NCBI GenBank assembly: GCA_018650165.1
Contig: JABIGM010000050.1
Location: 46,119 to 110,118 of the forward strand
Direction: 5' to 3'
DNA length: 64,000 bases
DNA from: Methanobacteriota archaeon
GTDB lineage: Archaea > Thermoplasmatota > Poseidoniia > Poseidoniales > Poseidoniaceae
Notes under the pieces: model-generated
What the model saw: the letters and a program-made list of their open reading frames with translations, nothing else
What the model was told of the DNA's origin: nothing
The model's database searches: none
Made by a program: the position numbers and the translations under genes
In this document: positions 21,578 through 59,000 of the stretch, one piece after another
How the letters are laid out: each line of letters begins with the position of its first letter
Position numbering within the stretch: position 1 is the first letter of the stretch

Positions 21578-22111
21578 ATGGCGGGAGAAATGGTTTGGAT
21601 TGATCTCGAAATGACGGGATTAAATCTTGATAGTGAATCTATTATTGAAATTGCCACAATTGTCACTGATGGTGAATTGAATATTACTGCCATGGGCCCA
21701 AATCTGGCAATCAAAGTAAGCGAAGAGTTGCTGGGAAATATGGATGAGTGGAACACAACTCATCACACAGCCTCTGGACTTGTTGATAGAATAAGGAGCG
21801 AAGGTGTTAGTTTAGAAGAAGCGATTAAGCAAACTTGTGCCTTTCTAAAAGAAAATATAGATACAGGTGCTTCTCCACTCTGTGGCAATTCAATTCATAC
21901 TGATAGAGCATTTTTGGCAAAAGAAATGCCTGAAATTCTAGACCTGTTACACTATCGTATTGTCGATGTATCTTCAATCAAAGAGTTATCCAATAGATGG
22001 TATCCAAATAATCCAAGATATGACAAAAAAGAAGCACACCGTGCTTTGGATGATATTATCGAATCTATCGAAGAACTTCGCCACTACAGGGCTACTTTAT
22101 TCAGAGATTAA
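21578..22111 (+). CDS. orn: Oligoribonuclease (DEDDh 3'-5' exonuclease).
   Basis: 'MVWIDLEMTGL' is Exo I with the DxE. 'GNSIHTDRAFL' and 'HRALDDIIESI' are Exo II/III with His and Asp. 177 aa is the typical Orn size. Confidence 0.8.
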   Translation: MAGEMVWIDLEMTGLNLDSESIIEIATIVTDGELNITAMGPNLAIKVSEELLGNMDEWNTTHHTASGLVDRIRSEGVSLEEAIKQTCAFLKENIDTGASPLCGNSIHTDRAFLAKEMPEILDLLHYRIVDVSSIKELSNRWYPNNPRYDKKEAHRALDDIIESIEELRHYRATLFRD

Positions 22112-41622: not shown

Positions 41623-42432
41623 ATGATGGAGACTAGTTTAACTCTAAATGATGTGTCGTGGCGGCACACTGTTAGAGATTATTCTTCTTGGAAACCTTGG
41701 GCTAAGAAAGATGGTCCCGGTATACATTCTATCAATCTAGAAATTCACAAAGGTCAGATTCTCGGGTTAATCGGGCCAAATGGTGCAGGAAAGTCGACCC
41801 TGATGAAAGCAATATGTGGCCTATATGATTGCAAAGGGTTCGACAAAACATGTACATCGCGTCGTATTGGAATTGGCTACATGCCAGAACAAGTTCGCTG
41901 GGAAGGCCGGATAAGTGTAAGGAACACTCTCAAAACAATTTCCCTAATGCGAGAAGAAACTGTTGATGTGGGAAGTATAATTCAAATTGTTGGCCTTTCC
42001 TCAAAATCAGATCATCACCTCGATAATCTATCACAAGGAATGCGCCAACGCCTTTCCTTGGCTTGTGCACTTATTGGGAATCCAAAAATATTGGTTCTAG
42101 ATGAGCCGCTGAATGGTTTGGATCCGCTTGCACAGAGAGCTTTCAGTAATCTGTTAGAAAGTCTTGCATCAAAGGGTGTTTCAATAATAATTTCTTCACA
42201 TCAAGTTGCCGACCTTGAGATGCTTGCAGACCGAGTTGCACTTCTGCATCACGGTCAATTATTGATTGAAGGCACGCTTTCCACTGTCAGAGAAAATCTT
42301 GGATTAGATGATAACTCGGGCATATTGGAAATGATTTGTTCAGCCACTGGAATCGACCCTGGTGATGTGAGTCTTGAACTTTCAAATGACGACTTACTGC
42401 CATTCAAACAATTAGGAGGTGAAGAAGAATGA
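41623..42432 (+). CDS. ABC transporter ATP-binding protein.
   Basis: Walker A 'GPNGAGKST', signature 'LSQGMRQRLSLA', Walker B 'ILVLDEP', H-loop 'SSHQ'. Confidence 0.85.
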   Translation: MMETSLTLNDVSWRHTVRDYSSWKPWAKKDGPGIHSINLEIHKGQILGLIGPNGAGKSTLMKAICGLYDCKGFDKTCTSRRIGIGYMPEQVRWEGRISVRNTLKTISLMREETVDVGSIIQIVGLSSKSDHHLDNLSQGMRQRLSLACALIGNPKILVLDEPLNGLDPLAQRAFSNLLESLASKGVSIIISSHQVADLEMLADRVALLHHGQLLIEGTLSTVRENLGLDDNSGILEMICSATGIDPGDVSLELSNDDLLPFKQLGGEEE

Positions 42433-43247
42433 GTGCCTTCACCCTTGGCTGGCATATCATGAAAGAACGCCTTTCAGCAGGCAGAATGTTGGTTATTTGG
42501 CCACTACTTGCGATATTCATTATCTTCTCGAGTTGGGGATTATCCGACCCTAAAGCGGATTTGTTATCGGGACTTACTATCGATTCCGCATATGATGTGA
42601 TGTTCGCATCAACAGCATTCATCGGGCTTTCTGCTACGATGGGAGCGGTGTTAATCTCATTTGACGGCATAAGTCGCGACCGTTTATCAGGAGTTTTAGA
42701 AATCAAATTGTCGCAGCCAATTGAACGGTCAAAGTATGCAAGGTCCCTTCTAATTGGACATTGGGGCGCTATTTTCTTCCCTGTATTGATATTGAATTTA
42801 TTCAGTCTTGCGATAATTTGGCACAGAATGAATGAATTACCCAGTGTTGAAGAATTTTTCATCTATACCCTAGGTACAGGATTACTATTACTTTGGTACA
42901 CTTCGATTCAACTCTTGGCCTCTTCTTGGGCGAAAGATATGGGTTCATCGATTGCTATTGGATTGGGTGTTTGGATGACATTCACACTACTGTGGCTAGT
43001 TCTAACCACTGTAGTTGCAGGTCTATCAGGGGTTGGAGTTGAAAATCTAAACTCTTCCGAATATGTCGAAATTGGGGGAATGGTGGATTTGTTTTCACCG
43101 AATGGTGTTTACAACCATCTCTTAGAATTACCACTTACTGGTGTCGATAGAGGGATTTCGCCATTAGCATCTACCATTGCTGCAATCGTATGGAGTGTAC
43201 TGCCACTACAACTATTCATTCGTAGAATAGAACGTATGCATCCATGA
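42429..43247 (+). CDS. ABC-2-type permease (6 TM).
   Basis: It overlaps the ATPase stop by 4 nt and has six hydrophobic helices typical of ABC-2 exporters. Confidence 0.6.
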   Translation: MSAFTLGWHIMKERLSAGRMLVIWPLLAIFIIFSSWGLSDPKADLLSGLTIDSAYDVMFASTAFIGLSATMGAVLISFDGISRDRLSGVLEIKLSQPIERSKYARSLLIGHWGAIFFPVLILNLFSLAIIWHRMNELPSVEEFFIYTLGTGLLLLWYTSIQLLASSWAKDMGSSIAIGLGVWMTFTLLWLVLTTVVAGLSGVGVENLNSSEYVEIGGMVDLFSPNGVYNHLLELPLTGVDRGISPLASTIAAIVWSVLPLQLFIRRIERMHP

Positions 43248-43293
43248 TAGTGTAAAGCAACACACTAAGTATATTCTGTTCATAGGACAAGCC

Positions 43294-45210
43294 ATGAAGG
43301 AGAGAATTCCAGCACTGTTGCTAGCAATCCTGATGGCAACAATGTCATTCACAACTGTAACAAGCGCCGAAGATTCAGGACGACAAGCGATGGACGTAGA
43401 TTGTTCAGGCTATACATTTGAAGACCTTTTTGAATACAATAATGCTGTCTTTATGTTTGAAATTTTAGATGATTGGGCGACCTCTGATTTGTACGCTAAT
43501 TCATGGGTCAATGAGAGCCGCGCTTCTGTTGTTAGAGATAATCTGGACAGTTTGTTCGAAGGCCTACCTGGAGGAAATGACAACTGGATTTCAACTGATG
43601 AGAGAGATGCTGTAAGAGAAATCGGTGCCAAGTGTATTGCAGACATGTACACTCGAATTGGAATTCGTGAAGGGCTCCCACATCGTGGAGATGTAGATTG
43701 GAATGATGTGACGTTCGTCGAAGAAGGTATTGGGCTAGAAGAAGTTAACTTAGTTCCAGAAGGGCATCCAGACGAGAGGGTTTGCCCCGCTAGTTCAGGA
43801 CGTATTCCAAGTGATGATTGTAAAGAAGTTCCAACTACTGCAACCAATAACCTTGAGATCTCGATGTTTACAAAAGAAGATGAAACGCACAATACTAGAT
43901 TCAATCAACTTCCAAATTTCGGAAATGGAGATTATGAAAACCAAACATTCACAGTCGCCATGAATGCAACAAATGTAACAAGCGCCACTATGGTGTTCTC
44001 ATTCCCATACGTTGACGGCCTTAGAATGGCAAACTGGACCATCGAAGATGATGGCGAAACCAATCTAGAAGCAGGGTCTATTATTGAAACACACCTTCCT
44101 GATGGAAGCGTTAGAGTAACCCTAACCATCGGTTACGACAAAGCAGATTACCCAATGATTCGAAATATCTTCTTTGACATGACGACCACTCCTCCTGAAG
44201 AAAATGATATTCCAGTTTGGAGTTCTTATGCTCCTGAAGATAATACAATTATCCCAATTATCAAAGATGGTAGTGAAGTTGTTGCAATCACTGGAAACAC
44301 GATGGAAAACTGGGCTAGCGATGATAACGCATGGGGCCTAGACTGTGAATTTGCTGAAACCGGCTGGTCCAGTAGAATGAATTCCGATGGTGAACTTTTA
44401 GTAACATCTGGCTCTTCTGAATCTGGAACTGCAGAGTGCTCTATTGTCGACCCATATGGTGCTACAAACAATGAAACTCACACATGGAGGTTTGGCCAGC
44501 CTGCGAGTTTTTCAGCAGTAGCAGGTAGTTATTCTGATTCGGTTGATATCGATGCAAATCCGACACTGTTAGTGCAAAGCCTCGCTGTTGGAATGGCTGC
44601 ATACCAAAATGGTGGAGATGGGCCGGTAACCAATTTTAATCTCGGCACAACTTCATCCTCAAACTCCGTTAGCTTATCTGGGATGTCACCTGGTGAATTC
44701 ATGATTCACGTTACTGCAAGTTCGGATGGAATGTTAGATTGGAATACAATGTTAGACCTTTCATTAGAAAAGAAGAACACACCTCCTGTAATTACTGTCA
44801 AAACTGACGAAATCGACGGGACTCAGGCTACTTGGGCATCAGACCAGTACTCGTTCAGTCTATCAGGTACTGCAATTGACCCCGATGGAGGTGTAGTAAC
44901 CCTATCTGCAAATATGTGTGGAGAAACCACTACTGCATTCACTAGAGATGGTGAAAATTGGGATGTTAGCCTATCAATCGCAAAGTGTGTATCCGATGGA
45001 GTAACTCAGTATGATGTCATCATTACGGCTACCGACCCCGTTAATGGGATAGCCACTGCAGATGTAAGTGTCCCAGATCCATTTGCTGGTTCTAACACAG
45101 ACACAGGCGACACAGATACCTCAGCCGAAGAGAGCGGCCTACCTTCAATCGGCATGTTTGCAACAATCATTTCGATGCTAGGTGCTGCACTTTTACTACG
45201 CAGAGACTAA
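43294..45210 (+). CDS. Secreted 638-aa protein with a signal peptide, a Thr/Asp-rich linker and the C-terminal hydrophobic tail 'GLPSIGMFATIISMLGAALLLRRD'.
   Basis: Signal peptide 'ALLLAILMATMSFTTVTSA'. The mature domain has no recognisable enzymatic motif. C-terminal anchor plus RR. Confidence 0.6.
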   Translation: MKERIPALLLAILMATMSFTTVTSAEDSGRQAMDVDCSGYTFEDLFEYNNAVFMFEILDDWATSDLYANSWVNESRASVVRDNLDSLFEGLPGGNDNWISTDERDAVREIGAKCIADMYTRIGIREGLPHRGDVDWNDVTFVEEGIGLEEVNLVPEGHPDERVCPASSGRIPSDDCKEVPTTATNNLEISMFTKEDETHNTRFNQLPNFGNGDYENQTFTVAMNATNVTSATMVFSFPYVDGLRMANWTIEDDGETNLEAGSIIETHLPDGSVRVTLTIGYDKADYPMIRNIFFDMTTTPPEENDIPVWSSYAPEDNTIIPIIKDGSEVVAITGNTMENWASDDNAWGLDCEFAETGWSSRMNSDGELLVTSGSSESGTAECSIVDPYGATNNETHTWRFGQPASFSAVAGSYSDSVDIDANPTLLVQSLAVGMAAYQNGGDGPVTNFNLGTTSSSNSVSLSGMSPGEFMIHVTASSDGMLDWNTMLDLSLEKKNTPPVITVKTDEIDGTQATWASDQYSFSLSGTAIDPDGGVVTLSANMCGETTTAFTRDGENWDVSLSIAKCVSDGVTQYDVIITATDPVNGIATADVSVPDPFAGSNTDTGDTDTSAEESGLPSIGMFATIISMLGAALLLRRD

Positions 45211-45246
45211 CCGTCACACTGAAAAGCAGAACGCCGAGGGCGTGTT

Positions 45247-46398
45247 ATGTTCAAAGGCAGGGTGGAGAGTGTCAGCCATGAAGGCGGCTTACTCGTATCA
45301 TACTCAGGTGCTTGTCCTGCTCTAGGGTCGGTTATGATCGATTCTGGCGAGACATATATCGGCAAAGTTGATGGAGTAATTGGTAATCTAAAAGAGTCAC
45401 TGGTACACATTGCTCACCTCGACAGAAAATCAAATCCCGAAGCTATGCTTGGTCTAGAAATTACAATTAGAACTCGTAAACCGAGGGATAAACAACACTC
45501 GAGTGATGGTCGTCGCGACCGAGATAATCGGGGCGAGCGGGGTGACCGGGGAGGTCGAGATGACAATCGTGGAGACCGCAGGGGACGCGATAACCGCGGA
45601 GACCGAGATAATCGAGATAATCGAGGTGGGAATTCAAACCATCAAAACCGGGATTGGGATTGTCCTAAATGTAATAATTCTAATTTTTCTTTCAGAACAG
45701 AATGTAATCGCTGTGGCGAGCAAAAAGGAAGAGGCGGTTCTAACTTCCAACGCGATGACAGGCGTGGAAGAGACGACAGGCGTGGAAGAGACGACAGGCG
45801 AGATAATGACCGCCGTGACAATCGTAATACTCACGGCGATAATGATTGGGATTGTCCGAAATGTAAAAATTCCAATTTCGCATTCCGAACAGAATGTAAT
45901 CGCTGCGGCGAATCTAAGGGCAGAGGTGGCTCAAATTTCCAACGTAACGACCGCCGAGGAAGTGATGAGCGACGTGGCGGTAATGATCGCCGAGGAAGAG
46001 ACGATAGACGCGGAGGTAATGACCGACGTGGAAATGGTAACACTCACGGAGAAAATGACTGGGACTGTCGAGAATGTAAGAATTCTAACTTTTCATTCAG
46101 GAATGAATGTAACAGATGTGGCGCACCTAAAGGAAGAGGGAGTGCACCAACTCAAAAATGGGAAGGTAATGATCGTAGGGCCGGAGATAGAAATGAATCA
46201 TCTCAGCCTAGAGCGGGTGATTGGGATTGTCCACAATGTGGTAAATCCAACTTTGCAAAACGCAATGATTGCTTTGGCTGTGGACGCTCAAAAAGGGTTG
46301 GCGGCCCTCGAAATAAAGGACACCACCGCAAATTACGCGACCCCCCGAAATTGCAATCTGCTAAGTACGGTCGCGGTGAGCGGAGGAATAACGAATGA
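45247..46398 (+). CDS. Gar1-like H/ACA RNP domain protein fused to RD/RG low-complexity repeats and four RanBP2-type zinc fingers.
   Basis: The N-terminal 78 aa align to archaeal Gar1 ('GLLVSYSGACPALGSVMIDSGETYIGKVDGVIGNLKESLVHIAHLD...NPEAMLGLEITI'). Four copies of W-x-C-x2-C-x3-N-x6-C-x2-C (for example 'WDCPKCNNSNFSFRTECNRCG') are separated by 'DRRGRDDRRG' repeats. Confidence 0.7.
   Translation: MFKGRVESVSHEGGLLVSYSGACPALGSVMIDSGETYIGKVDGVIGNLKESLVHIAHLDRKSNPEAMLGLEITIRTRKPRDKQHSSDGRRDRDNRGERGDRGGRDDNRGDRRGRDNRGDRDNRDNRGGNSNHQNRDWDCPKCNNSNFSFRTECNRCGEQKGRGGSNFQRDDRRGRDDRRGRDDRRDNDRRDNRNTHGDNDWDCPKCKNSNFAFRTECNRCGESKGRGGSNFQRNDRRGSDERRGGNDRRGRDDRRGGNDRRGNGNTHGENDWDCRECKNSNFSFRNECNRCGAPKGRGSAPTQKWEGNDRRAGDRNESSQPRAGDWDCPQCGKSNFAKRNDCFGCGRSKRVGGPRNKGHHRKLRDPPKLQSAKYGRGERRNNE
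45490..46330 (+). repeat. Tandemly repeated coding modules (RD/RG low-complexity plus RanBP2 zinc finger) of about 190 bp, 3-4 copies.
   Basis: Near-identical DNA blocks 'gattgggattgtcc(t/g)aaatgtaa...aattc(t/c)aa(t/c)tt...agaacagaatgtaatcgctg(t/c)ggcga' recur at about 45655, 45845 and 46055. Confidence 0.75.
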
Positions 46399-47426
46399 GT
46401 GCTGAAAGCCATTATCTTGATGCAATTGAAGCAGAAGAGAATGGTGAAATTGACAGTGCCTTAGAGCATGCTAGGCTTGCTGTCGAAGCAGACCCTGAGC
46501 ATTCAAACGCATGGTGGATGATTGCATGCCTCCTTTCGCCCGAAGGAAAATATCCAGATATCGAGCAAGCATCAAAGGCAGTAGTTGCATGTAATAAAGT
46601 CATAGACATCGATCCTTCTAGAGTTGATACATGGGTCAAATGTGGACGCTTGATGGTTGATCATTTGGGTCTGCACGAAGATGCTCTCGCATGGTGGCAG
46701 CGCTGCAGAGAAGCTGCTCCACTAGAATCGGTTCCGATTATAGAACAAGTAACAATTCTTTCAGACCTGGGAATGTATGCTGAAGCAAGAGACCGCTTAA
46801 GTGCGCTTTTCGAAGAGAATTTAGATATTGCAAATTCGCAACTTGCACGAATTACACATCTGCACAAAACTCTCGAGCGTTCGGCTCAACAGGACCCGAA
46901 AGTCCATTTCAAACCGTGGCAAAAAAATCATGGAGGATGGACTGCAATTAAGATGCGAGCAAACAAAGCACCTGTTTCGGAAAACATGTTGTTTATGTTG
47001 TCCACAGTTCCATTTTTGATGATGGAAGTTTTTGCTGCAAGGGCATTATTTGGTTCGGGATGGGGTGCATTTTGTCTGACAAGCCTGCTTATTTTAGTGA
47101 CCGTAATAATCGGTATGTCCTTCACAAGAAAATTGTATCAACGAGTGAATAGACCAGGTTTCAACTTACTAAGAGCGATTCAATTTGAGGCGAGTTGTGG
47201 AAAAGTCGTAATCCCTGAAGATATTCGAGCCTCGAAATTATACATGTTCCTATTCGCTCGACATCCACCTGCATTTCAGCAAAGATTAGAGAAAATTGTC
47301 GAGGCAGACCGTAAACTTCCAAGGAATTGGAAAATGAATCTGCCTGATTTTGAATCACATTACGATGAGATAGGATACATCGATGATGAACAAGAAGAAG
47401 ACTTGACTTCGTACGAAGAAGAGTGA
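46395..47426 (+). CDS. TPR-like N-terminal domain protein with two central TM helices and an acidic C-terminus. Hypothetical.
   Basis: 4-nt start/stop overlap with the upstream gene. TPR-like helical repeats 'ALEHARLAVEADPEHSNAWWMIA'. Hydrophobic segments 'MLFMLSTVPFLMMEVFAA' and 'FCLTSLLILVTVIIGM'. Confidence 0.45.
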   Translation: MSAESHYLDAIEAEENGEIDSALEHARLAVEADPEHSNAWWMIACLLSPEGKYPDIEQASKAVVACNKVIDIDPSRVDTWVKCGRLMVDHLGLHEDALAWWQRCREAAPLESVPIIEQVTILSDLGMYAEARDRLSALFEENLDIANSQLARITHLHKTLERSAQQDPKVHFKPWQKNHGGWTAIKMRANKAPVSENMLFMLSTVPFLMMEVFAARALFGSGWGAFCLTSLLILVTVIIGMSFTRKLYQRVNRPGFNLLRAIQFEASCGKVVIPEDIRASKLYMFLFARHPPAFQQRLEKIVEADRKLPRNWKMNLPDFESHYDEIGYIDDEQEEDLTSYEEE

Positions 47427-48780: not shown

Positions 48781-51700
48781 CTATTGCTGTTGTTGGAAGT
48801 GACCAGCATATTGTTGGGCATAGGTCCTCGCAGTTTCTTCAGGATATCCTTGGGCAATCAATTGTTGTACATATTGCTCCATCGGGTCCATTTGTGCTAC
48901 TCCAGCATATCCTGCCGCAGTTGCAGTGAAGTCGCCACCCATTTGTGTATCAATTCCCATTGTTTCATCTTCAGTTCCGCCACGCATTACAAAGAATAGT
49001 GATAATAGTACAATTAACAGCAGACCAATTCCTCCACCGAGATATAGCATCAAATTAGAATCTTCTCCTGATTCAATAGCATCAGAATTTGGTGCCTTAT
49101 CCGGGATTCCATCATTATCTGAATCGGTATATTTACCGGACCAACTACAAGATTCGGTTTCATCGTCCCAAATCCAATAAGCATCAGGTTCAGCATCAAG
49201 AACCTCAACTGGAACTTCTAGACCTTGACATGCAGGTAGAGTGAGTTCTATCCAATAGATAATCGGCCATCGCTTGTCATCTCCTTCGTATACCTTGACG
49301 AAGACTCTCTTGGATTTGGTTTCATTATCGAATAGGTCCTCAATATTCAGAGTTAATTCGAATCCGTCTCCGTCTCCAAGGGCATCCGATCTAGCCCATT
49401 TCTTTTCTAAAGAAAGTGTGTACTTAGCGACTGCTGTTTCATCAAAAGTAGTTTCGAGTAAAGCAACTTCGACATATACATCTCCTTGCTCTGCACCATC
49501 TACAATGTTTCCAGCCAAGGTAATTGTATCGCTCATAACCTTTGAACCATTCAGTGACAAATCAATTTGTACAGTAGGTTCAGCATCGCCGAACCCTTCT
49601 GGAACCACTGAGAAGTACATCTTGTACTTGTCAGAACTCTTTCCAGCTTGGTCGTATACTACTAATTCGATACGAATTAGTGATTCTGTCTGCCCACTTG
49701 GGTCAACTGTAACGTTGCTGAAAGTGTAAGCCCAAGCACCATCACTGGAATCAGGTATCACGAAATTATGACCTTCCAACTTGTAATTATCTTCATTGTA
49801 AGGCTTGTCAAACAGTACAGTCCATTCATACGACTCTATTCCAGAACCTGTCAGTGCATCTGCATCTGAGGAATTACCTGCATCGAAATGTACGGTTAGT
49901 GAACCTGTATCATCCAAATGAATACGTTGTAGTGGCCAATCTATTCCAGATACGGATTTTACTCCTCTGTCTTCGATTAAGTCCTCATACTCTTGTCTCA
50001 TATCGATTACTGCATCTGCATCAGGACGGTACTCATCTGCTCTTGTATCATCTGTCATAACTGTAACAGAGATTGAGCGAGAGTGTCCTGCTGCATCGTG
50101 TAGGTAAAGTGTAATCTCCCAAGTTGCGCCTTGCAAACATCCTGTTGCAGATTGTAGGTCAACTTTACAGAATTCAACTGTAGGAGTTGCCACATCTGTG
50201 TGGTCAGTTCCACTAGCCATAGAGGAACCTTCCCAATCAGTTGGTCCATTGATTACCCAATCTGTAGACAAAACCTCAGAGGTACTTGTTGTGTGAGCGA
50301 AAGTAATCTCTGAATCACTCTTCATGTAGTGGTATGCATACCCTGCTGTCGAAGGATCGAATGCAGGTACTTCTCCATTAATAGTCAAGTCAAGTCCACT
50401 TCCAAGTGTACCAAATCCGTTAGGATAAGGAGATACCTGGTATGAAAGCATGTTACCCAGTAGTGGGAAGGTAGAACTGTCTGCTCTATCAGAAACACTT
50501 GCAACGTCGATTGTTGTAACGATTAATCCACCATCAACATAGCTACATACTCCCAATACAGTATCTTGGACATCTGCTTCAGATTGAAGGAGTCTCTGGA
50601 ATGTACCACCTTCTTCGGAGTATCCATTACATGCACGAGGTACAGAGGTCGCAGAAGCGCTCTTTGTGTTGATAATAGATTCTGTAACTGTTCCGAATTG
50701 ATCAAATCCTTGGAATGCTGCTAAATCAATTCCATCAAGTATAGGATGGAATGGGTCTGCAACTTCCATATTGCTGTATGTAACTCGAGTCTCTGGGGTG
50801 TTACGAGGTTGGATATTCATATCGAATGGAAGCAAACTCTCTCCTGTAGATGATGAATAATCATAGTAATCTGTTGCTCCGGAGAGGTGAATTTGTACCG
50901 TACCTCCAGATGACATGAAACTCTTCAGAATATTCTTGTTCGAATCTGTACCAACCATAGTGAAGTACTCTTCAGCATTACTTGCACCCTGCCAAGGCAT
51001 AATCACCTTATCATAATGAGTTAACCAGCCAAGGTCGAGATAATTACCCCAATCATTGACATCATATTGGGTGTAAGTCATTCCAAGAATTACCAAGTCT
51101 TCTTTGATTGAAGCTACTCTAGTGGAATCTCCTGATAATATTGCGATGTCTATATGCGCTGCAAATGTTGCATGGAAGTAACGTACGTTTCCTGAAGTAC
51201 TACCATCTGGTAATGTTGCATGGTAACTAATATTGTAAGAGTGTCCATCTTGCCATCCATTCCATGGTGTAAAGGAAACAATGGTCCGCTGATGAGCACT
51301 CAATGTTTGGCTAGGCCCCGCAGTAGTTGTGTGAACTTGACTTCCATCTGCTTCATCAACAACTGTCATGTGGAAGGTGTAATCTCCTTGAAGAACACCA
51401 TTTGTTGCAGAGAGTGCCCAATCGTGCATCTTTGCACTGTCGATTGGTAGTACACAATCCAATACCACATCATCGAGACATGAAATTTGGTCTGGTTTTC
51501 CAAGGGTGATATCTACACTTTCTACAGAGAAAATCACTCGGCCTAAATTGTTAGCCAGTGACACTTCTTCCATTCCGTACCATGTTGTTCCTTGAGTTGT
51601 ATTGTCGAAAACTGATTCAACTTCAATCTTGTAGACTCCAGATACGAAGTCGTGGTTTGAAATTGAAATTGTTCGGTTCTCCTCAGCATCTAAATCGATT

Positions 51701-54700
51701 ACAGATGTACTGTATACTGCATCTTGGCTGAAGGTAAACTCCTCTAGGGTGATGTTATCGAATCCAACACCACGTACACCATCATTTTGGCCATTGTGGC
51801 CGTCATCGTTCGAACGGAATTCGAAATTGAGGTCTAGAGTTGATCCTGCTAGACTGATACACTCATCAGTCCACTGGTTACTATCAGGAGCGGTTGTATT
51901 TACAACATAAAGGTGAGTCAAATCTAGACTTCTGCTCTGAACTAATCCATCGGTGTTGAAGAATACATTGTATGATCCTGAGCCACCATTAACATTTGTT
52001 GGGTCTCCGATATATTCGATTTCAGTATTGTCTAGAGTTGTTTCATTGACAGGGTCGATGAAACCATTTCCATCTTCATCAACGATACAGAATCCATCTT
52101 CATTGTAATCAATCCACTGTCCATAGATTAGCCCATTGTAATCAGAACTACCTTGTGTCCAATCTACCGTTAGAGCAGCATAATCGTTCACTGAAGATGT
52201 TTGGCCAGACTGAGAAATCTCGAACCAAGTTTCAGCATAGTACTCGAAGTTAAGAGCAACATAGTCACCAGACATGTTTGTCAAATCAATTCCAGGGATA
52301 GTTAGGGTTTCGTTCTCCCAGACATCGCCGAAACTGTTTGCAGTATTACATGGATGACCGAACCAGTATGCATGTGAACCGAAAATCTTCTCAGTACAAC
52401 TGGAGTCATCTAGGATTCCTCCATTTGCATTGTTGTCATCTGTATATCTAAATCCAGATGCACCGCCTTCGAATCCTTCTTCACAGACGACTAGAGGTGA
52501 GCCACAGTATACATCTGTTGGTAAAGCGCTGTAGACCTTTGCTTCAACATCGAATGAGACATTGGTATTACCACGATGTTCGACTTTAACTTCAATTGGG
52601 AAGTTTCCTTCCGCATACAATCCTCCGGGATTGAATGATTCAATTCCCATGACAGCTGGGTCGAAAATATTGAATGCTGTAATGTAACCTACGATTTCGT
52701 CATTTGCAGGCTGTTCATCTTGTCCATAATTCAGAACTGCGGATATACGGTATGTGGTTCCATTCACGAAATCAGCAGTAATTGCTGCTGTGTAATCGCT
52801 ATTAGGTGCCAGATTGTTCATGTTGATCGGTGCTTGAAGGGTCTGAACATTACTGGTAAAAGCGGTGTTTTGCTTCCAGATTGTAATGTTGTCAATTGCG
52901 AATCCATCTAGACCAGACCAACGTGATTCATTTGCGCCAACAGAGCCTTCGAATCCAGACTTAAAGCGGAATCTAATATCGATTGTATCTCCTGCGAATC
53001 GGGAGAGGTCAAATGCCCCAAGGTCGTCTTCTGTGAAATTACCCCAACTGTACTGTGTTCCTGGAATTGCACCACCGTAGCGATAGATAGATTCAGCGAA
53101 ATTGGTATTTTGGAGGTTTTCGATACGTCCATTGTCATATCCACCCCAATAACTGATTCCAGATGCACACTGTGCTCCGAAATATGCCCCATTAGGACAA
53201 GCGATTGTTACCCAGCCTTCGTCTTCTGTGAAGACTTCGATAAGAGCCATGTCGTCCCAAACTTCACCAAGGTAGAAGCCGTTAGCATCTTGATAATACA
53301 AGTCAGCTAGACCGAGTTGCCTGAATAGTTCAACACTCATCCAAGCACGGTCTGCTCCTGTCAAGTCGATATCATTCAGGACAAGCCCTTCATCCCAATT
53401 TGCTCCGTATCCAGACCATTCGCTCCCACTTGAATTGGTTTTCATTACTCCAGACCACATGAAATCAGTAGGGTTGTTTGCGTTTGCAGATTCCGATGCA
53501 GCATTGTTTCCGGAAGTATGTCCACTGGAACTGTTTGCTGCAAATTCTTCATGCCAATGACTTGGCCCATAGTATGACTCAGTAGTCCAAGAACATCCTG
53601 AACTGCATCCGGTCTTAACCTCTGGGTTATCCCAATCCATTGCGTATACTGTTACATTGCTAGAAGCACTTTCATCAACTTCCTTAATCTCAACATCAAG
53701 GGTTGCTTGTCCGTTTAGAATATCCATCCCAGTGTTTGTGACAGTAACTTCAACCTCACGCTCACCTTCTCCTAAAGCACCGATATAAACATCGGTTGGA
53801 GAGATATCAATGCTTGCAACCGCTAGATCTTTGTTATCCATTTCGATAACAACGATTCGGTCGTATGCGCCATCCCAGCCGAAGTTATCATCCCATGTTT
53901 GTTGGTCATATGCTCCATGCCCTACAACGAGGTCAGGTGCACTGTTTGTACCTCCAATTACTTGCCCAACTGTGACAGTAGTTGGCCGCATTGCACCGAA
54001 ATATTCCAGTGGGTTCATGTGACCACCAGCGCCGTTAGAAAGCGTCACTTGGACACTTGTTGGCAAGTTAAGGAAAAAGTTCGTAGTAGTGTCTCCGGTA
54101 GAAGATGTTGAGTTTGATGCTTTGAACTTTCCAGCGTGGATGAAGTCTACTTCTCCATCACCGTTCAATTCAGCAATAGTAACTTCCCAAGCAATATATG
54201 GTCCGAAATATACTGTATTAGAACTAGCATAGGTATGGGTTGTTGGATTGATTGTAGCGTAAGTTACATTCTCGGTATTTCCATCGTTAATTGCAACAAC
54301 ATCGATTACACCATCATTATCCAAATCTCCAATATCAAATCCACCAAATTGAGGACCTAGTGCATGTACGTGCAATCCAGTTCCACCAGATGTACTCCAT
54401 GCAATTGTAGCAGGGAATGTGTTTGTAAGACAATTGAATTCGATAACTGTGACGTTGTCGGATTTACCAGGGTTTGTTGCAGCCCCGGTTAGATAATCGA
54501 CACCTTGTGACCTAACTAGCCACAGGTCATTATCATCACAACTTCCACTAACAGGATTGGTTTGACTTGGTTCTCCCCAATCCCCTAATTCAAGTTCTGT
54601 GTAAGAGTTTTGAGTTGAATCACCAAGACTGGTAATTTGTGCCTGTGTGTTTGAAGTGATTGGTCCGCGGTATGTAACAACACGCTGGTTCTTTAGGTCG

Positions 54701-55287
54701 GCAAGCAATTCGAGTGTGACGATATCGTCGTTGCCATCTTGGTCTAAATCAGCTACTGCTAGGTCCCACATCCAAATTACATCGAATTGTTCACCGATAG
54801 TGAAAGTATCAACGCTACATCCATCGTTTTCGATGATAGTTACGTTTCCGGGCTTGTCAACAACGATTGCACCGCTTGCATCTTGTTTTAGAGGCCTGTT
54901 TCGAGCATAGATTACGATGTCAATAGCATTGTCTCCGGTGAATTCTCCAACCTCGACTTGCTGAGTATTTGAGTGATCTTCATAATCAGCATCTTGGCTT
55001 GGGTTTCCTGAAGTCCATACATCAGAACGCTTCTGGAAGTGTCCATTTTCATTCCACAGAATGGAAATCCTTGTACTTCTATCATTTGCAGTTACAATAT
55101 CCAAATCGCCGTCACAATCGAAATCACCTAAGGCGACATCGACAGGGTCTGTGTCAGTAGTATATGTCCTCGAAGTTGAAGCAGATACTAGGTTTGCGGC
55201 AGTTGTTGAAAGTAACATTACTAAGACTAGGAAAATCGCTCTTGTGCGTCCGTCCTTGTTCATTGTGTTCCAAAACATCATCATCAC
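48781..55287 (-). CDS. Giant (2168 aa) cell-surface adhesin-like protein: signal peptide, FG-GAP/VCBS-like Ca-binding repeats, many beta-rich domains, a C-terminal TM and a Q/Y-rich cytoplasmic tail.
   Basis: Repeated 'DxDxDGxxD' loops ('DFDCDGDLDIV', 'DLDQDGNDDIV', 'DLDNDGVIDVV', 'ELNGDGEVDFI'). N-terminal signal peptide. C-terminal 'IGLLLIVLLSLFFV' TM. Confidence 0.8.
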   Translation of the reverse strand: MMMMFWNTMNKDGRTRAIFLVLVMLLSTTAANLVSASTSRTYTTDTDPVDVALGDFDCDGDLDIVTANDRSTRISILWNENGHFQKRSDVWTSGNPSQDADYEDHSNTQQVEVGEFTGDNAIDIVIYARNRPLKQDASGAIVVDKPGNVTIIENDGCSVDTFTIGEQFDVIWMWDLAVADLDQDGNDDIVTLELLADLKNQRVVTYRGPITSNTQAQITSLGDSTQNSYTELELGDWGEPSQTNPVSGSCDDNDLWLVRSQGVDYLTGAATNPGKSDNVTVIEFNCLTNTFPATIAWSTSGGTGLHVHALGPQFGGFDIGDLDNDGVIDVVAINDGNTENVTYATINPTTHTYASSNTVYFGPYIAWEVTIAELNGDGEVDFIHAGKFKASNSTSSTGDTTTNFFLNLPTSVQVTLSNGAGGHMNPLEYFGAMRPTTVTVGQVIGGTNSAPDLVVGHGAYDQQTWDDNFGWDGAYDRIVVIEMDNKDLAVASIDISPTDVYIGALGEGEREVEVTVTNTGMDILNGQATLDVEIKEVDESASSNVTVYAMDWDNPEVKTGCSSGCSWTTESYYGPSHWHEEFAANSSSGHTSGNNAASESANANNPTDFMWSGVMKTNSSGSEWSGYGANWDEGLVLNDIDLTGADRAWMSVELFRQLGLADLYYQDANGFYLGEVWDDMALIEVFTEDEGWVTIACPNGAYFGAQCASGISYWGGYDNGRIENLQNTNFAESIYRYGGAIPGTQYSWGNFTEDDLGAFDLSRFAGDTIDIRFRFKSGFEGSVGANESRWSGLDGFAIDNITIWKQNTAFTSNVQTLQAPINMNNLAPNSDYTAAITADFVNGTTYRISAVLNYGQDEQPANDEIVGYITAFNIFDPAVMGIESFNPGGLYAEGNFPIEVKVEHRGNTNVSFDVEAKVYSALPTDVYCGSPLVVCEEGFEGGASGFRYTDDNNANGGILDDSSCTEKIFGSHAYWFGHPCNTANSFGDVWENETLTIPGIDLTNMSGDYVALNFEYYAETWFEISQSGQTSSVNDYAALTVDWTQGSSDYNGLIYGQWIDYNEDGFCIVDEDGNGFIDPVNETTLDNTEIEYIGDPTNVNGGSGSYNVFFNTDGLVQSRSLDLTHLYVVNTTAPDSNQWTDECISLAGSTLDLNFEFRSNDDGHNGQNDGVRGVGFDNITLEEFTFSQDAVYSTSVIDLDAEENRTISISNHDFVSGVYKIEVESVFDNTTQGTTWYGMEEVSLANNLGRVIFSVESVDITLGKPDQISCLDDVVLDCVLPIDSAKMHDWALSATNGVLQGDYTFHMTVVDEADGSQVHTTTAGPSQTLSAHQRTIVSFTPWNGWQDGHSYNISYHATLPDGSTSGNVRYFHATFAAHIDIAILSGDSTRVASIKEDLVILGMTYTQYDVNDWGNYLDLGWLTHYDKVIMPWQGASNAEEYFTMVGTDSNKNILKSFMSSGGTVQIHLSGATDYYDYSSSTGESLLPFDMNIQPRNTPETRVTYSNMEVADPFHPILDGIDLAAFQGFDQFGTVTESIINTKSASATSVPRACNGYSEEGGTFQRLLQSEADVQDTVLGVCSYVDGGLIVTTIDVASVSDRADSSTFPLLGNMLSYQVSPYPNGFGTLGSGLDLTINGEVPAFDPSTAGYAYHYMKSDSEITFAHTTSTSEVLSTDWVINGPTDWEGSSMASGTDHTDVATPTVEFCKVDLQSATGCLQGATWEITLYLHDAAGHSRSISVTVMTDDTRADEYRPDADAVIDMRQEYEDLIEDRGVKSVSGIDWPLQRIHLDDTGSLTVHFDAGNSSDADALTGSGIESYEWTVLFDKPYNEDNYKLEGHNFVIPDSSDGAWAYTFSNVTVDPSGQTESLIRIELVVYDQAGKSSDKYKMYFSVVPEGFGDAEPTVQIDLSLNGSKVMSDTITLAGNIVDGAEQGDVYVEVALLETTFDETAVAKYTLSLEKKWARSDALGDGDGFELTLNIEDLFDNETKSKRVFVKVYEGDDKRWPIIYWIELTLPACQGLEVPVEVLDAEPDAYWIWDDETESCSWSGKYTDSDNDGIPDKAPNSDAIESGEDSNLMLYLGGGIGLLLIVLLSLFFVMRGGTEDETMGIDTQMGGDFTATAAGYAGVAQMDPMEQYVQQLIAQGYPEETARTYAQQYAGHFQQQQ

Positions 55288-56092: not shown

Positions 56093-59000
56093 TCAGACCC
56101 TTTCGAACCTACCGTCAGGATGGCGCCACCACCAGACGCCTTCAGAAGTCTCGTACCACATTCCGTCGTCTCTATCGTGGTATTCACCACCGCCAGGCAA
56201 TCCGTCCCAAGATTCAATGAACTTAGATGGCTCCTCTAATGAAATCTCTGTGATTGGAGTTTCTATTTCCTCCTTATCGAGAAGATTGATTTCTTCCGCT
56301 CCGAATTCATCCTCTTCTCTGCGTTTCATAAATGCAAATATTAGGAGGCCGGCAATCAGCAAAGTCATTGCACCCAGAATTCCTAATGTAGTTCCGGTAA
56401 ACATAGAACCGGCCGTTTCATCGGTCGGTGTTTCATCATCTTCGACTTCAACTGGTTCTAGTTCAGGTTCTACAACCTCAAAGGTATGGTTTCCTTCTTC
56501 TAGTAAGAGCCAGTATCCCCCTCTATTTTGAGCCTCTAGGCGCCAATCAAGAACATAATTGCCAACTTCCTTTCCATCCTTCAACATACAAGAGACATCT
56601 AGGGTTAGTGAAGGATCGACTACTGTCTCATTGCAATTATAATCTGCAGAGGGTTTTGAACTAATCATTCGCAATGTTGTTGGATAATCTCCCGCATTGG
56701 TTGAAGAACAATTGGCTTCACTACAAAATGCAATGATTTCGATATTCCACCAAGGTGTTGCATCAATAATTTGCGAATAATTTTCACATTCACCAATGCT
56801 ACATATTTCCAAAACAATATTGTGAGATGAATTACTCAGATTTGATAAAGATAATTGTTCGAAAAGAGACCCGTCCATTATTGGAGTTACAAGCCACACT
56901 TCATCATCTACAACCCAATTTAGAGTCCCTTCACCGGTTCTAAAAATTACATCGCCAGATAAAATGACACTCTCTTCAACAGCAGATAAGGATAGATTTG
57001 TAGAATTTATTATTGGTAGAGGCACTGGTATATCAACCAAATTTATCGTAGTATTAACCTCATTACCAAAATTATCTCTCACATGGATTTCAGCGGTATA
57101 AGCACCAGGAGATAGAGTGTTTTTGTCCAGTGTTGTATAACCAATTCCATTACTGGTTTGATCGATGATTTTGGTTGCAATATTCTCACTATTGGGCCCG
57201 AAAATGAACGCCCAAACACTTACCGTATCTCCCGGTTCTATTTCCCACTGGACATCGATTCTGACCTCGTCGGTAGTCTCGGTTGATGTTGCTGAAAGTA
57301 TCACTGGAGGGATGCCATCTATGAGATAAAAAGTAGCATCTATACCATTATGTAACCCATCTTCATCAATTTCTCCACCATTTGGCTCCTCGGCATAAAC
57401 CTCTACGTCCCATGAACCAAGGTCGGAAAATTCAGGTTCCCAAATTACAGAATAGGCAGAATCTGTTGTATTCCATACCATCTGAAGTATCTGAGTTGAC
57501 GATTCTGAATTCAATTCTATTTCGACATTAAGGTCGCTTCTATCATTTGCGTCTTTAACTAAGAATCTAAGATTGTCAGGAGTGCTGAAATTACTATTTT
57601 CAGCAAGTTCTCCATCAACAGTCATTATCGCAAGTTGACTAACCGAAGGAATGGCAGGTAATACTGTTATTGAATCTGCATTTAACAGTATAACTGAGTT
57701 CCCTTGCGCATCATACAATTCAACACTGAACCATATAGAATGGTCGATGCTTGCATCCAATTGGAAAGTAGAAACACTTCCCCAATATTTTTGGATTTGC
57801 GAGTTCCAAATCAATGGGTTTGGGCTAAGATTCGCAAGTTCAATCCAAGTTGTAACGGGAGAAGTGTGTGCCCAAATTTTGCCTTGTAAGTCGTCTTCTG
57901 CAAGTTTATCATGCACTATAACCACGATAGTTTCGCCATGTCTAGCATCAGCATCGTCCACACCGTTGACCCTATGTGAGACCGATTGGATTTGGGGCTC
58001 GATATCATCAACCCATGCAATATTCAAGTTGCTAAGTTCTAATGTTTGATTCCACATTTCACCTTCGGGGTCACCTTTGACATCAATAGAATATGCATCA
58101 AGGCATGATTCTGTAGCATCGTACCACGAGCCGCATTGTGAAGTTGCATGATTTTCCATTTCTGAGGAAAATTCGAGGTTACCTGTAATTGTATGATGGA
58201 AACTAACATTTGTAATGCCAAATGCTTGTAGATTTGATGTACTCAAACTAAAGTTAAGATTCGTCCACTCAATACCTTCAGAAGTTGAATTGTAAACTGT
58301 TGGCCATTCATTTTGCATCACGCTCATTGGAATAATTAGGTCAATTCCCCCTGCAACAACATCTGCTGACGACCACGAAATTGTGTATCCGCTATTGAAT
58401 GTAGCTGTGACGCTGCCTGTGATGTTATTGTTCGCCAGATCCATCCACATTGCAAAATCGGAAATCGCAGTTCCGTTCAATGGAACATCTAACGATAAAG
58501 GAACAGTAAGAGGGTTTGCTTTCGTTAAAGGGCCGTCCTCCTCTATCCACCCAAAAACCAAATCGGGGTCTAGAGGGCCTAGAATGGATTGGCCCTCTAG
58601 TTCAATACTGAGATTCTCCATGTGTTCGATATTCGTTGAACCGGGAACAATCGCGGTCAGAATCGGAGATAACCCAGCACTCGACCTCTCGAAATCATAG
58701 AGAAAACTGATGTTGGAAAATCGTGGCAATTCCTGGTGAGAAAGGTTGCCATTTAGCCACCCAGACCAGTCTACTCCATTCATTGTGTAATTATACTTCA
58801 TGTCCAATACGGCACCTGCTGGAACTGACGCAGTAGTATTAATCCATGCCCTTTCGACATTATCGTCATCCCCTAACCCAGGAATTAAGAAACTGCCATA
58901 ATTTGAGGTATTATTACTACTAGAAATAAACCCTGGGAAGGTCGAATAAGTGGTACTTCCAACTACACTATTTGACCCTGCAATCCCGTCCGAGCCAGTT

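What the first reader, a model, noticed from the sequence alone, without database searches (positions are those of the whole stretch)
45247..46398. Archaeal Gar1 core fused to RGG/RD repeats and four RanBP2-type zinc fingers
The first 78 aa align convincingly to the archaeal H/ACA-RNP protein Gar1. The remaining 300 aa are Arg/Asp/Gly low-complexity ('DRRGRDDRRG') alternating with four perfect RanBP2-type Zn fingers (W-x-C-x2-C-x3-N-x6-C-x2-C).

By established knowledge, archaeal Gar1 normally lacks the GAR tails of eukaryotic Gar1. In eukaryotes, RanBP2 zinc fingers with RGG boxes are a hallmark single-stranded-RNA-binding module (FUS/EWS/TAF15, ZRANB2). A prokaryotic Gar1 carrying this module would be a eukaryote-like RNA-binding architecture in an archaeon.

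I infer that it could give H/ACA pseudouridylation guides an extra ssRNA-recognition surface, or that it marks a separate RNA-chaperone function.
Basis: partly seen in the sequence, partly recalled or inferred. Interest (0 to 1): 0.85.

Follow-up and report, generated by a model that had tools for sequence, protein, structure and literature searches.

The report
Archaeal Gar1 with RNA-binding zinc-finger tail
In the abundant marine archaea Poseidoniales, the small pseudouridylation-complex protein Gar1 carries a long disordered Arg/Gly/Asp tail with one to four FUS/ZRANB2-like RNA-binding zinc fingers, an arrangement otherwise typical of eukaryotic nuclear RNA-binding proteins.

Summary
ORF 45247-46398 (+, 383 aa) has four exact RanBP2-type fingers (Pfam PF00641, E=2e-29) separated by R/G/D/N-rich linkers that are predicted disordered.

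It is not a misassembly. 178 species genomes encode the domain. Of the 80 loci kept, 63 of 66 complete ORFs carry 1-4 fingers, and the other three are frameshifts with fingers in another frame. Gene order around the locus is fixed.

The ZRANB2/FUS RNA-contact positions (D68, N76, aromatic 79, R82, N86) are essentially invariant in 178 fingers.

Best reading: this is the Poseidoniales Gar1, extended by a multivalent single-stranded-RNA-binding tail that is functionally analogous to eukaryotic GAR domains. Whether it binds Cbf5, what RNA it binds, and whether a second Gar1 exists were not tested.

I found no prior description. Public annotation calls it either 'zinc finger protein' or 'Gar1', never both. 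It is a new variant of a known kind.

The parts
45247..46398 (+). Complete gene for the Gar1-ZnF protein (383 aa plus stop)
   Evidence: ORF list. Third-codon-position bias of substitutions against orthologues. Full-length orthologues such as P0200, 376 aa and 95% identical over the tail.
45247..45480 (+). Gar1-type six-stranded beta-barrel (aa 1-78)
45481..45648 (+). Linker 1, R/D/G/N-rich and predicted disordered (aa 79-134)
   Evidence: pLDDT about 30 in the full-length model. Composition.
45649..45729 (+). RanBP2-type zinc finger 1 (aa 135-161; motif W137-C156)
   Evidence: Motif match. Pfam PF00641. pLDDT 70-75. RNA-contact residues D, N, F, R, N present.
45730..45840 (+). Linker 2 (aa 162-198), containing a perfect 18-nt x 2.4 tandem repeat at 45757-45800
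   Evidence: TRF, the repeat finder family D2, pLDDT about 30.
45841..45921 (+). RanBP2-type zinc finger 2 (aa 199-225; motif W201-C220)
   Evidence: PDB ZNF265 1n0z_A E=1.1e-5 aligns here. The finger-plus-linker unit repeats with a 192-nt period, 75% identical over 151 nt to unit 1.
45922..46053 (+). Linker 3 (aa 226-269), containing a 36-nt x 2.5 tandem repeat at 45944-46033
   Evidence: TRF, pLDDT about 30.
46054..46134 (+). RanBP2-type zinc finger 3 (aa 270-296; motif W272-C291), orthologous across the whole clade
   Evidence: ZRANB2 2k1p_A E=7.3e-5 and FUS 6g99_B E=7.7e-5 align here.
46135..46215 (+). Linker 4 (aa 297-323)
   Evidence: pLDDT below 50 for residues 297-319.
46216..46296 (+). 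RanBP2-type zinc finger 4 (aa 324-350; motif W326-C345). This is the variant last finger, with K at the N76 position, K at the R81 position and F at the N86 position.
   Evidence: RBM5 and RBM10 fingers align here. Nearly invariant within the window's clade.
46291..46377 (+). Conserved C-terminal peptide KRVGGPRNKGHHRKLRDPPKLQSAKYGRG (aa 349-377); function unknown
   Evidence: Conserved in all complete orthologues. The window's clade has KRVGGP..GHH..DPPPL.SAKYGR; the other clade has FRKA.GK..GHAHNRPP.
46395..47426 (+). Downstream TPR/membrane protein gene whose start overlaps the Gar1-ZnF stop by 4 nt (ATGA). It is a conserved neighbour, given as context only.
   Evidence: ORF list. Weak TPR Pfam hits. 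Found downstream in 67 of 80 loci.

Best explanation
This gene encodes the Gar1 subunit of the box H/ACA pseudouridylation RNP of a Poseidoniales (Marine Group II) archaeon.

Shown here:
- An N-terminal Gar1 beta-barrel is followed by about 300 residues of disordered R/G/D/N-rich linkers, in which four small RanBP2-type zinc ribbons are embedded. The protein ends in a conserved short peptide.
- The fingers belong to the ZRANB2/FUS single-stranded-RNA-binding subclass, and their RNA-contact residues are under strong purifying selection.
- The architecture is ancestral and general in the order. The number of fingers varies between 0/1 (degenerate) and 4 through duplication and loss of finger-plus-linker units.

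Inferred:
- The barrel docks on the catalytic domain of Cbf5 and handles its thumb loop, as in Pyrococcus.
- The tail, which canonical archaeal Gar1 lacks, gives the RNP a multivalent, low-specificity ssRNA-binding arm. The fingers would read GGU/GGN-like triplets and the RG/RGG/RD segments would bind RNA non-specifically.
- This arm would tether or concentrate the RNP on nascent rRNA or other substrates, or help load and release substrate. That is the role attributed to the GAR domains of eukaryotic Gar1.
For: Fingers:
- PF00641 E=2e-29, four stretches.
- Closest solved relatives are the RNA-binding fingers of ZNF265/ZRANB2, FUS and RBM5/10.

Gar1 barrel:
- AF2 pLDDT 89.9 without templates.
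- Foldseek agrees.
- Family profile A2 hits Pyrococcus Gar1 at E=1.1e-4 and yeast Gar1 at E=0.011.
- Pfam Gar1 is the only recurrent family, matched by 27/34 members.
- JGI independently names relatives 'rRNA processing protein Gar1'.

Conservation:
- 178 species genomes carry the domain.
- 63 of 66 complete ORFs have 1-4 fingers. The other three are frameshifts with fingers in another frame.
- Synteny is fixed.
- Distant finger-poor forms occupy the same slot, so they are orthologues and not paralogues.
- 103 of 110 best matches to the finger module also carry the Gar1 domain.

RNA-contact residues (defined in PMC11789483) across 178 fingers:
- D68 equivalent: 100%.
- N76 equivalent: 100% in non-last fingers.
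- Aromatic 79 equivalent: 100%.
- R82 equivalent: 100%.
- N86 equivalent: 99% in non-last fingers.

Disorder and folded islands.

Literature: archaeal Gar1 lacks GAR domains and does not contact RNA (PMC1865073). Gar1 acts through the Cbf5 thumb loop (PMC4551948). The RG/RGG repeats of GAR1 matter for sub-nucleolar organisation and fitness in C. elegans (PMC9633708).
Against: - The sequence match to Gar1 is below the curated Pfam and NCBIfam cut-offs. A profile built only from the closest relatives found no Gar1 in the PDB.
- No interaction with Cbf5 was tested, and no cbf5, nop10, l7ae or H/ACA sRNA lies in the window.
- I could not scan a whole Poseidoniales genome for a second, canonical gar1.
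- The linkers are RD-rich polyampholytes (R 26%, G 18%, D 15%; 6 RGG), not classical G-rich GAR domains.
- The R81 position is F, as in FUS (which has W there), not R.
- The last finger lacks the N76 and N86 equivalents.
- RNA binding and its specificity are inferred from residue conservation only.
Confidence: 0.6

Rival explanations
1. The protein is a neo-functionalised Gar1-like RNA-binding protein. The barrel has been kept only as a protein-interaction or scaffold module, in the way Naf1 uses the Gar1 fold. The protein would work mainly as a general RNA chaperone, ribosome-assembly factor or mRNA-binding regulator outside the H/ACA RNP, while a separate canonical Gar1 (or none) serves Cbf5.
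For: - Sub-threshold similarity to Gar1 family models.
- About 80% of the protein is RNA-binding tail.
- The genomic neighbours are unrelated to RNA modification.
- A conserved C-terminal peptive of unknown partner is present.
Against: - The domain occupies one syntenic locus per genome across at least 80 species loci and is very strongly conserved. This is what is expected of an essential core subunit.
- Distant forms in the same slot have short tails that look like ordinary Gar1 plus a basic extension.
- No second Gar1-like family surfaced in the representative search, although a canonical one would be too distant to be seen there.
Confidence: 0.22
2. The fingers are not RNA binders. They would mediate protein-protein contacts, as the Ran-binding Nup153/RanBP2 fingers or the ubiquitin-binding NZF fingers do, or they would bind DNA.
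For: - RanBP2-type fingers include protein-binding classes; Nup153 and RanBP2 fingers appear as weaker hits.
- The last finger departs from the RNA-binding consensus.
Against: - The best solved relatives are the RNA-binding fingers (ZRANB2, FUS, RBM5/10), at E 1e-5 to 1e-3. Nup153 scores 0.015-0.6.
- The aromatic residue used to select putative RNA binders (position 17; PMC6384913) and the D68, N76, R82 and N86 equivalents are invariant.
- From my own knowledge, the NZF ubiquitin-binding T-F dipeptide that follows the second Cys is absent; the window has N-N, K-N or G-K there.
- The fingers are embedded in RG/RGG/RD linkers, which is typical of RNA-binding proteins.
Confidence: 0.08
3. The fusion is an assembly chimera or a pseudogene: a gar1 gene misjoined to an unrelated repeat protein across about position 45480.
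For: - The repeats break many public assemblies. Many homologues are truncated within the linkers or run into adapter-like sequence.
- Polished long-read contigs carry frameshifts here.
Against: - The same N-domain-to-linker-to-finger junction is seen in independent assemblies (P0008, P0010, P0016).
- It is present in 63 of 66 complete ORFs from different species genomes, in fixed synteny.
- Full-length near-identical proteins exist elsewhere (P0200, P0202).
- The codon-position substitution pattern shows selection along the whole ORF.
Confidence: 0.01

Closest known systems
Archaeal Gar1 (e.g. Pyrococcus furiosus Gar1; PDB 2EY4, 2HVY, 3HAY)
   Same: Six-stranded beta-barrel of about 75 residues that superposes at 1.5 A with 26% identity. 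The central G-K-V-D-x-V-x-G block aligns with the Gar1 core.
   Different: Canonical archaeal Gar1 is 73-104 aa as crystallised, has no GAR tail and does not contact RNA (PMC1865073). The window protein is 383 aa with a 300-aa RNA-binding tail. Its sequence lies below the curated family cut-offs.
Eukaryotic Gar1/GAR1 with N- and C-terminal GAR (RGG) domains
   Same: A Gar1 core plus arginine/glycine-rich disordered extensions. Some orthologues (P0117, P0108, P0122) have true RGG-rich tails. The presumed role is extra RNA contact or local concentration of the RNP (PMC1865073, PMC9633708).
   Different: The extension is C-terminal only. In the window it is RD-rich (R 26%, G 18%, D 15%) and not G/F-rich. 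It contains zinc fingers, which to my knowledge no described eukaryotic Gar1 has. It most likely arose independently, because Poseidoniales are Thermoplasmatota and not close to the eukaryote stem.
FET proteins (FUS/EWS/TAF15), with the RGG-ZnF-RGG module
   Same: A RanBP2-type finger flanked by RG/RGG segments. The finger sequence is very close to FUS at the functional positions (D-W-x-C...C-x-N-x-N-F-S-[FW]-R-x-E-C-N-x-C; FUS 6g99_B E=7.7e-5).
   Different: There is no prion-like domain and no RRM. The window has four tandem fingers where FET proteins have one, and the module is attached to a Gar1 barrel.
ZRANB2 (ZNF265), two tandem RanBP2 fingers that bind GGU in ssRNA
   Same: Tandem fingers of the same subclass (1n0z_A E=1.1e-5; 2k1p_A E=7.3e-5). 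The D68, N76, R82 and N86 equivalents are conserved.
   Different: W79 is F and R81 is F. The linkers are RD/RGG and not an RS domain. The context is archaeal.
Naf1 (Gar1-domain assembly factor of eukaryotic H/ACA RNPs)
   Different: The fold similarity is lower than to Gar1. Naf1 is eukaryote-specific and has no zinc fingers.

Membership tests
Gar1 (PF04410 / COG3277; H/ACA RNP subunit) | Six-stranded Gar1-type beta-barrel | tested here: met
Gar1 (PF04410 / COG3277; H/ACA RNP subunit) | Sequence match to the family model at the curated threshold | tested here: not met
   PF04410 scores 15-19 bits against a cut-off of 29.3. NF009629 scores 20.5 bits against a cut-off of 132. Below threshold the signal is specific: Gar1 is the only recurrent family (27/34 members, best E=2.8e-5), and profile A2 hits PDB Gar1 at E=1.1e-4.
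Gar1 (PF04410 / COG3277; H/ACA RNP subunit) | Binds the catalytic domain and thumb loop of Cbf5 within the Cbf5-Nop10-L7Ae-sRNA particle | not testable with these tools
   No multimer prediction is offered and no Poseidoniales Cbf5 sequence was in hand. The role is known from PMC4551948.
Gar1 (PF04410 / COG3277; H/ACA RNP subunit) | Is the (sole) Gar1 orthologue of its genome | not tested
   Whole genomes could not be scanned. Indirect support: one syntenic locus per species genome in 178 genomes, and divergent forms sit in the same slot.
RanBP2-type zinc finger (PF00641) | W-x-C-x2-4-C-x3-N-x6-C-x2-C signature and a Pfam score above the gathering cut-off | tested here: met
   Four exact matches. 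101 bits against a cut-off of 27, E=2e-29. The four segments fold as small hairpin pairs with pLDDT 70-80.
ZRANB2/FET-type ssRNA-binding subclass of RanBP2 fingers | Aromatic residue at finger position 17 (ZRANB2 W79), which stacks on the two guanines | tested here: met
   F in all four window fingers. F or Y in 178/178 fingers of the orthologues. The criterion comes from PMC6384913 and PMC11789483.
ZRANB2/FET-type ssRNA-binding subclass of RanBP2 fingers | Base-contacting R81, R82 and N86 (plus D68 and N76) | tested here: inconclusive
   R82, D68, N76 and N86 equivalents are present in fingers 1-3 and are 99-100% conserved in non-last fingers. The R81 position is F (FUS has W there). Finger 4 has K, K and F at the N76, R81 and N86 positions.
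ZRANB2/FET-type ssRNA-binding subclass of RanBP2 fingers | Binds GGU/GGN in single-stranded RNA | not testable with these tools
   Needs EMSA, RBNS or SELEX.
GAR / RGG domain (as in eukaryotic Gar1, fibrillarin, nucleolin) | A long run of RGG/RG repeats that is glycine-dominated with few other residues (about 10 or more RGG+RG; PMC9957100) | tested here: inconclusive
   The window has 6 RGG, 18 RG and 12 GR, but the linkers are R 26%, G 18%, D 15% and N 12%, which makes them RD-rich polyampholytes. Some orthologues carry classical RGG runs (P0117, P0108, P0122), with up to 29 RGG.
NZF (ubiquitin-binding RanBP2-type fingers) | T-F dipeptide immediately after the second Cys, plus a hydrophobic residue about 11 positions later (from my own knowledge of the Npl4/TAB2 NZF) | tested here: not met
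   The residues after the second Cys are N-N, K-N, K-N and G-K.

The most novel reading that the evidence does not exclude
The multivalent tail (one to four ssRNA-binding fingers alternating with RG/RGG/RD disordered segments) makes Poseidoniales Gar1 a scaffold that condenses with nascent rRNA. This would give these archaea a nucleolus-like, phase-separated ribosome-biogenesis compartment, evolved independently of eukaryotes or seeded by a FET/ZRANB2-type finger acquired from a planktonic eukaryote.
Probability: 0.12. Interest if true: 0.88.

Novelty: new variant of a known kind. Interest (0 to 1): 0.62.

Why it matters
GAR/RGG tails on snoRNP proteins, and RGG-plus-RanBP2-finger modules, are treated as eukaryotic inventions tied to the nucleolus and to nuclear RNA processing. 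The reviews state that archaeal Gar1 lacks such tails and does not touch RNA.

Here an entire order of archaea, among the most abundant in the surface ocean and not close relatives of eukaryotes, has put exactly this kind of module on Gar1 and kept it under selection. That has three consequences:
- It offers a natural experiment on what an RNA-binding tail adds to an H/ACA RNP, and the question can be tested with recombinant proteins.
- It shows that eukaryote-like RNP features can arise, or be acquired, outside the Asgard/eukaryote line.
- It exposes an annotation gap. Pfam-based pipelines see only the fingers, so these genomes appear to lack a recognisable Gar1.

Tried and rejected
- A profile of only the closest relatives (A1) against PDB sequences found no Gar1. 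A broader profile (A2) was needed.
- Rfam at gathering thresholds found nothing in the window, so no H/ACA sRNA or other RNA gene gives context.
- Pfam annotation of 40 window ORFs found no cbf5, nop10, l7ae or any other RNA-modification gene.
- The short-Gar1 reading of public hits was rejected. The hits of 174 aa or fewer are truncated at contig ends within the repeats, or run into adapter-like sequence. P0006, the 97-aa call on a 748-kb contig, is a frameshift split. The three zero-finger loci have fingers in other frames.
- The paralogue reading of distant, finger-poor members was rejected for P0140 and P0093, which have the same synteny.
- Two loci per MAG (MED870, SP143, SP3054) were considered as paralogy. 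They were rejected because both copies share the full synteny, which points to mixed strains in one bin.
- Literature searches for Gar1 with RanBP2 and archaea, Gar1 with Poseidoniales, and RanBP2-type with archaea and Marine Group II found nothing relevant.
- I did not use the third large protein search to look for a canonical Poseidoniales Gar1. Only the best 120 hits are listed, and these would be dominated by other archaea.
Full report
**What is there**

The ORF at 45247-46398 (+) starts with ATG and encodes 383 aa. A regular-expression scan finds four exact W-x-C-x2-C-x3-N-x6-C-x2-C motifs, at residues 137-156, 201-220, 272-291 and 326-345. After residue 80 the protein is dominated by R (63), G (44), D (40) and N (38). 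Pfam gives PF00641 (Zn_ribbon_RanBP) at E=2e-29, 101 bits against a cut-off of 27, in four stretches. The closest solved relatives of the fingers are the RNA-binding fingers of ZNF265/ZRANB2 (E=1.1e-5 and 7.3e-5), FUS (7.7e-5) and RBM5/RBM10 (3e-4 to 7e-4). The Ran-binding Nup153 fingers score far worse. The descriptive part of the finding is therefore confirmed.

**Is the N-terminus Gar1?**

By plain sequence the match is weak:
- PF04410 gives 15 bits for the full protein and 19 bits for the isolated domain, against a cut-off of 29.3.
- The NCBIfam Gar1 equivalog NF009629 gives 20.5 bits against a cut-off of 132.
- Pyrococcus Gar1 2hvy_B gives E=0.037.
- A profile of the 16 closest homologues (A1) found no Gar1 among PDB sequences.

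Three independent lines then settle it.
2. An exhaustive profile search of 1.84 billion representatives found only 121 family members. A profile of 34 diverse N-domains from these (A2) puts four Pyrococcus Gar1 sequences on top of the PDB search (E=1.1e-4 to 2.4e-4), followed by yeast Gar1 (0.011).
3. When the 34 members were scanned individually, 27 matched Pfam Gar1 at E of 0.01 or better. The only other family, matched by one member, was PF25455.

JGI's pipeline independently names several relatives 'rRNA processing protein Gar1'. I conclude that the domain is a divergent but true Gar1 barrel.

**Not a chimera; an order-wide architecture**

Homologues of the N-domain in the 5.8-billion-protein collection all come from Poseidonia/Poseidoniales or from marine metagenomes. 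They looked short (174 aa or less), but their sequences show why. Contigs break inside the repeats or run into adapter-like sequence. Several independent assemblies (P0008, P0010, P0016) read straight from the Gar1 domain through RD repeats into a finger.

A scan of one genome per GTDB species found 178 genomes encoding the domain, and 80 loci were kept. Of 66 complete ORFs, 63 carry fingers: two fingers in 28, three in 22, four in 8 and one in 5. The three exceptions have fingers in a shifted frame. A 97-aa call on a 748-kb polished long-read contig is likewise a frameshift split.

Gene order is fixed across the loci: ABC ATPase, ABC-2 permease, a roughly 640-aa secreted protein, Gar1-ZnF, then a TPR/membrane protein. 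In the window's clade, SAH hydrolase and a giant surface protein follow on the other strand.

Searching with the finger module alone returns full-length orthologues (P0200: 376 aa, 95% identical). Of the 110 newly returned proteins checked, 103 carry the Gar1 domain. Five of the other seven are fragments of the same gene, and only two (P0279, P0292) are unrelated multi-finger proteins. In these archaea the module is thus essentially specific to Gar1.

Substitutions against orthologues fall overwhelmingly at third codon positions in the N-domain, in finger 3, and in finger 4 plus the tail.

**Anatomy**

The full-length model is beads on a string:
- Folded islands lie at residues 1-78, 135-161, 199-225, 270-296 and 320-351, with pLDDT of about 55-80 (the fingers at the top of that range).
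- The linkers (79-134, 162-198, 226-269, 297-319) have pLDDT of about 30.

The linkers are polyampholytes: 55 R, 38 G, 31 D and 25 N of 209 residues, net charge +27, with 6 RGG, 18 RG and 30 RD/DR junctions.

At the DNA level, the finger-plus-linker units repeat with periods of 192 and 213 nt, at 64-76% identity. The linkers also contain a perfect 18-nt x 2.4 repeat and a 36-nt x 2.5 repeat. This explains both the copy-number variation among species and the frequent assembly breaks.

The alignment of full-length orthologues shows that the last two fingers and the tail are orthologous throughout, while the upstream fingers come and go. After the last finger every complete orthologue has a conserved peptide. 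In the window's clade it reads KRVGGP..GHH..DPPPL.SAKYGR. In the other clade it reads FRKA.GK..GHAHNRPP. I could not assign it to any known motif.

**Are the fingers RNA binders?**

In the ZRANB2 C'-finger, W79 stacks on the two guanines of GGU, R81 contacts G1, R82 contacts G2, and N86 contacts G2 and U3 (Loughlin 2009, as summarised in PMC11789483). An aromatic residue at this position (finger position 17) was the criterion used to select putative RNA-binding RanBP2 fingers (PMC6384913).

I collected 178 fingers from 79 proteins (78 orthologous ORFs plus the window's) using a pattern that fixes only W, the four Cys and one Asn. The positions that were not fixed came out as follows:

| ZRANB2 position | State in the Poseidoniales fingers |
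|---|---|
| D68 | D in 178/178 |
| N76 | N in 107/107 non-last fingers |
| W79 | F or Y in 178/178 |
| R82 | R in 178/178 |
| N86 | N in 106/107 non-last fingers |
| R81 | F, W or R (the FUS arrangement is N-F-S-W-R) |

The last finger of the window's clade is a separately conserved variant, with K, K and F at the N76, R81 and N86 positions. The ubiquitin-binding NZF signature (T-F after the second Cys, from my own knowledge) is absent. Fingers 1-3 are therefore predicted to bind GGU/GGN-like triplets in ssRNA. This is an inference from conserved contact residues and not a measurement.

**Range within the order**

More distant family members carry the labels Thalassarchaeaceae, Poseidoniaceae or Thermoplasmatota. 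They have the same Gar1 domain with varied tails:
- P0117 has a classical RGG/GAR-like run.
- P0108 and P0122 have RGG linkers plus two fingers.
- P0140 and its relatives have one degenerate finger.
- P0103 has only a basic R/K/S/G tail.

P0140 and P0093 sit in the same syntenic slot as the window gene. They are therefore positional orthologues, not paralogues. A basic or RGG tail on Gar1 is general in Poseidoniales, and the fingers are a variable elaboration of it.

**Mechanism**

Established knowledge: in Pyrococcus, Gar1 binds the catalytic domain of Cbf5, does not touch RNA, and controls substrate placement and product release through the thumb loop (PMC1865073; PMC4551948). Eukaryotic Gar1 adds GAR domains, which have been proposed to account for its RNA cross-links (PMC1865073). 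In C. elegans these domains are needed for sub-nucleolar organisation and for fitness (PMC9633708).

My best explanation (confidence 0.6) is that the barrel keeps the Cbf5-binding role. The tail would provide a multivalent ssRNA-binding arm that tethers or concentrates the H/ACA RNP on nascent rRNA or other substrates, or assists loading and release.

Rivals:
- A neo-functionalised Gar1-like RNA chaperone acting outside the RNP (0.22).
- Fingers that do not bind RNA (0.08).
- An assembly chimera (0.01).

The steps that remain inferred are Cbf5 binding, RNA binding and its specificity, and the absence of a second canonical gar1. The window itself gives no functional context: its other genes are metabolic, transport or surface proteins, and Rfam finds no RNA gene.

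**Novelty**

The held literature has no paper linking Gar1 with RanBP2-type fingers in archaea or in Poseidoniales. Public annotation is split. NCBI calls these proteins 'zinc finger protein' or 'hypothetical'. JGI calls them 'rRNA processing protein Gar1'. The precomputed Pfam column shows PF00641 only, for every orthologue.

The components are all known kinds, so I rate this a new variant of a known kind: an archaeal Gar1 with a eukaryote-like RGG-plus-RanBP2-finger tail. It contradicts the textbook generalisation that archaeal Gar1 lacks such tails.

Interest is 0.62. The finding is real, order-wide and conceptually notable for RNP evolution. It is still a domain-architecture finding in uncultured organisms, with function untested.

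Noticed in passing
window 46291-46377 (aa 349-377); also the C-termini of L001-L080: A strongly conserved peptide follows the last finger. The window's clade has KRVGGP..GHH..DPPPL.SAKYGR and the other clade has FRKA.GK..GHAHNRPP, with a shared G-H-(A)-H...P-P core. It matches no motif I know and may be a docking peptide for an unknown partner.
   Followed up: partly
window 41623-47426; L001-L080: The gene order ABC ATPase, ABC-2 permease, roughly 640-aa secreted protein, Gar1-ZnF, TPR/membrane protein is conserved across the order. Junctions are tight: ATGA stop/start overlaps at 42429-42432 (ABC ATPase/ABC-2 permease) and 46395-46398 (Gar1-ZnF/TPR), and a 36-nt gap upstream of gar1. This looks like an operon of functionally unrelated genes.
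   Followed up: partly
L058 (CAXRAI010000013.1): A contig in a public MAG labelled Salinimicrobium sp., a bacterium, carries the complete Poseidoniales locus: ABC transporter, secreted protein, Gar1-ZnF with three fingers, and the TPR gene. The contig is probably mis-binned.
   Followed up: no
L006/L009 (MED870), L007/L017 (SP143), L023/L024 (SP3054): Three MAGs each contain two copies of the whole syntenic locus on different contigs, in two of the three pairs with different finger numbers. This suggests mixed strains in one bin and not paralogy.
   Followed up: partly
P0001, P0003, P0004, P0033, P0035, P0039, P0040: Several public protein predictions end in peptides such as LSLIHI(SEPTRPY), CLLYTSPSPRD(G) and VSYTHLTLP. 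From my own knowledge these look like translated sequencing-adapter sequence. The contigs appear to stop in the gar1 repeats and run into adapter.
   Followed up: no
window 45503-46405 (+, other frame) and several minus-strand ORFs across 45414-46412: Long shadow ORFs of up to 300 aa overlap the gene. They result from its repetitive, codon-biased composition and are not supported by the codon-position substitution pattern.
   Followed up: yes
window 48781-55287 (-), 56093-60121 (-), 60170-62824 (-), 16246-20280 (+): A cluster of very large predicted surface proteins of 2168, 1342, 884 and 1344 aa. The 2168-aa protein has FG-GAP-like repeats in its orthologues. Its C-terminus is only 31-52% identical between genomes, although its position is conserved.
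   Followed up: no
window 8308-12658 (-) and 22101-23476 (-): A xanthine dehydrogenase / CO-dehydrogenase-type molybdoenzyme set, comprising FAD-binding, molybdopterin-binding and 2Fe-2S subunits. The XdhC and MobA-like maturation genes lie about 10 kb away.
   Followed up: no
P0100 (1361 aa): An unrelated long protein matches positions 12-39 of the Gar1 N-domain profile in nine repeated stretches (E=3e-14). I did not examine it. It is probably a repeat protein with a similar beta-hairpin motif.
   Followed up: no
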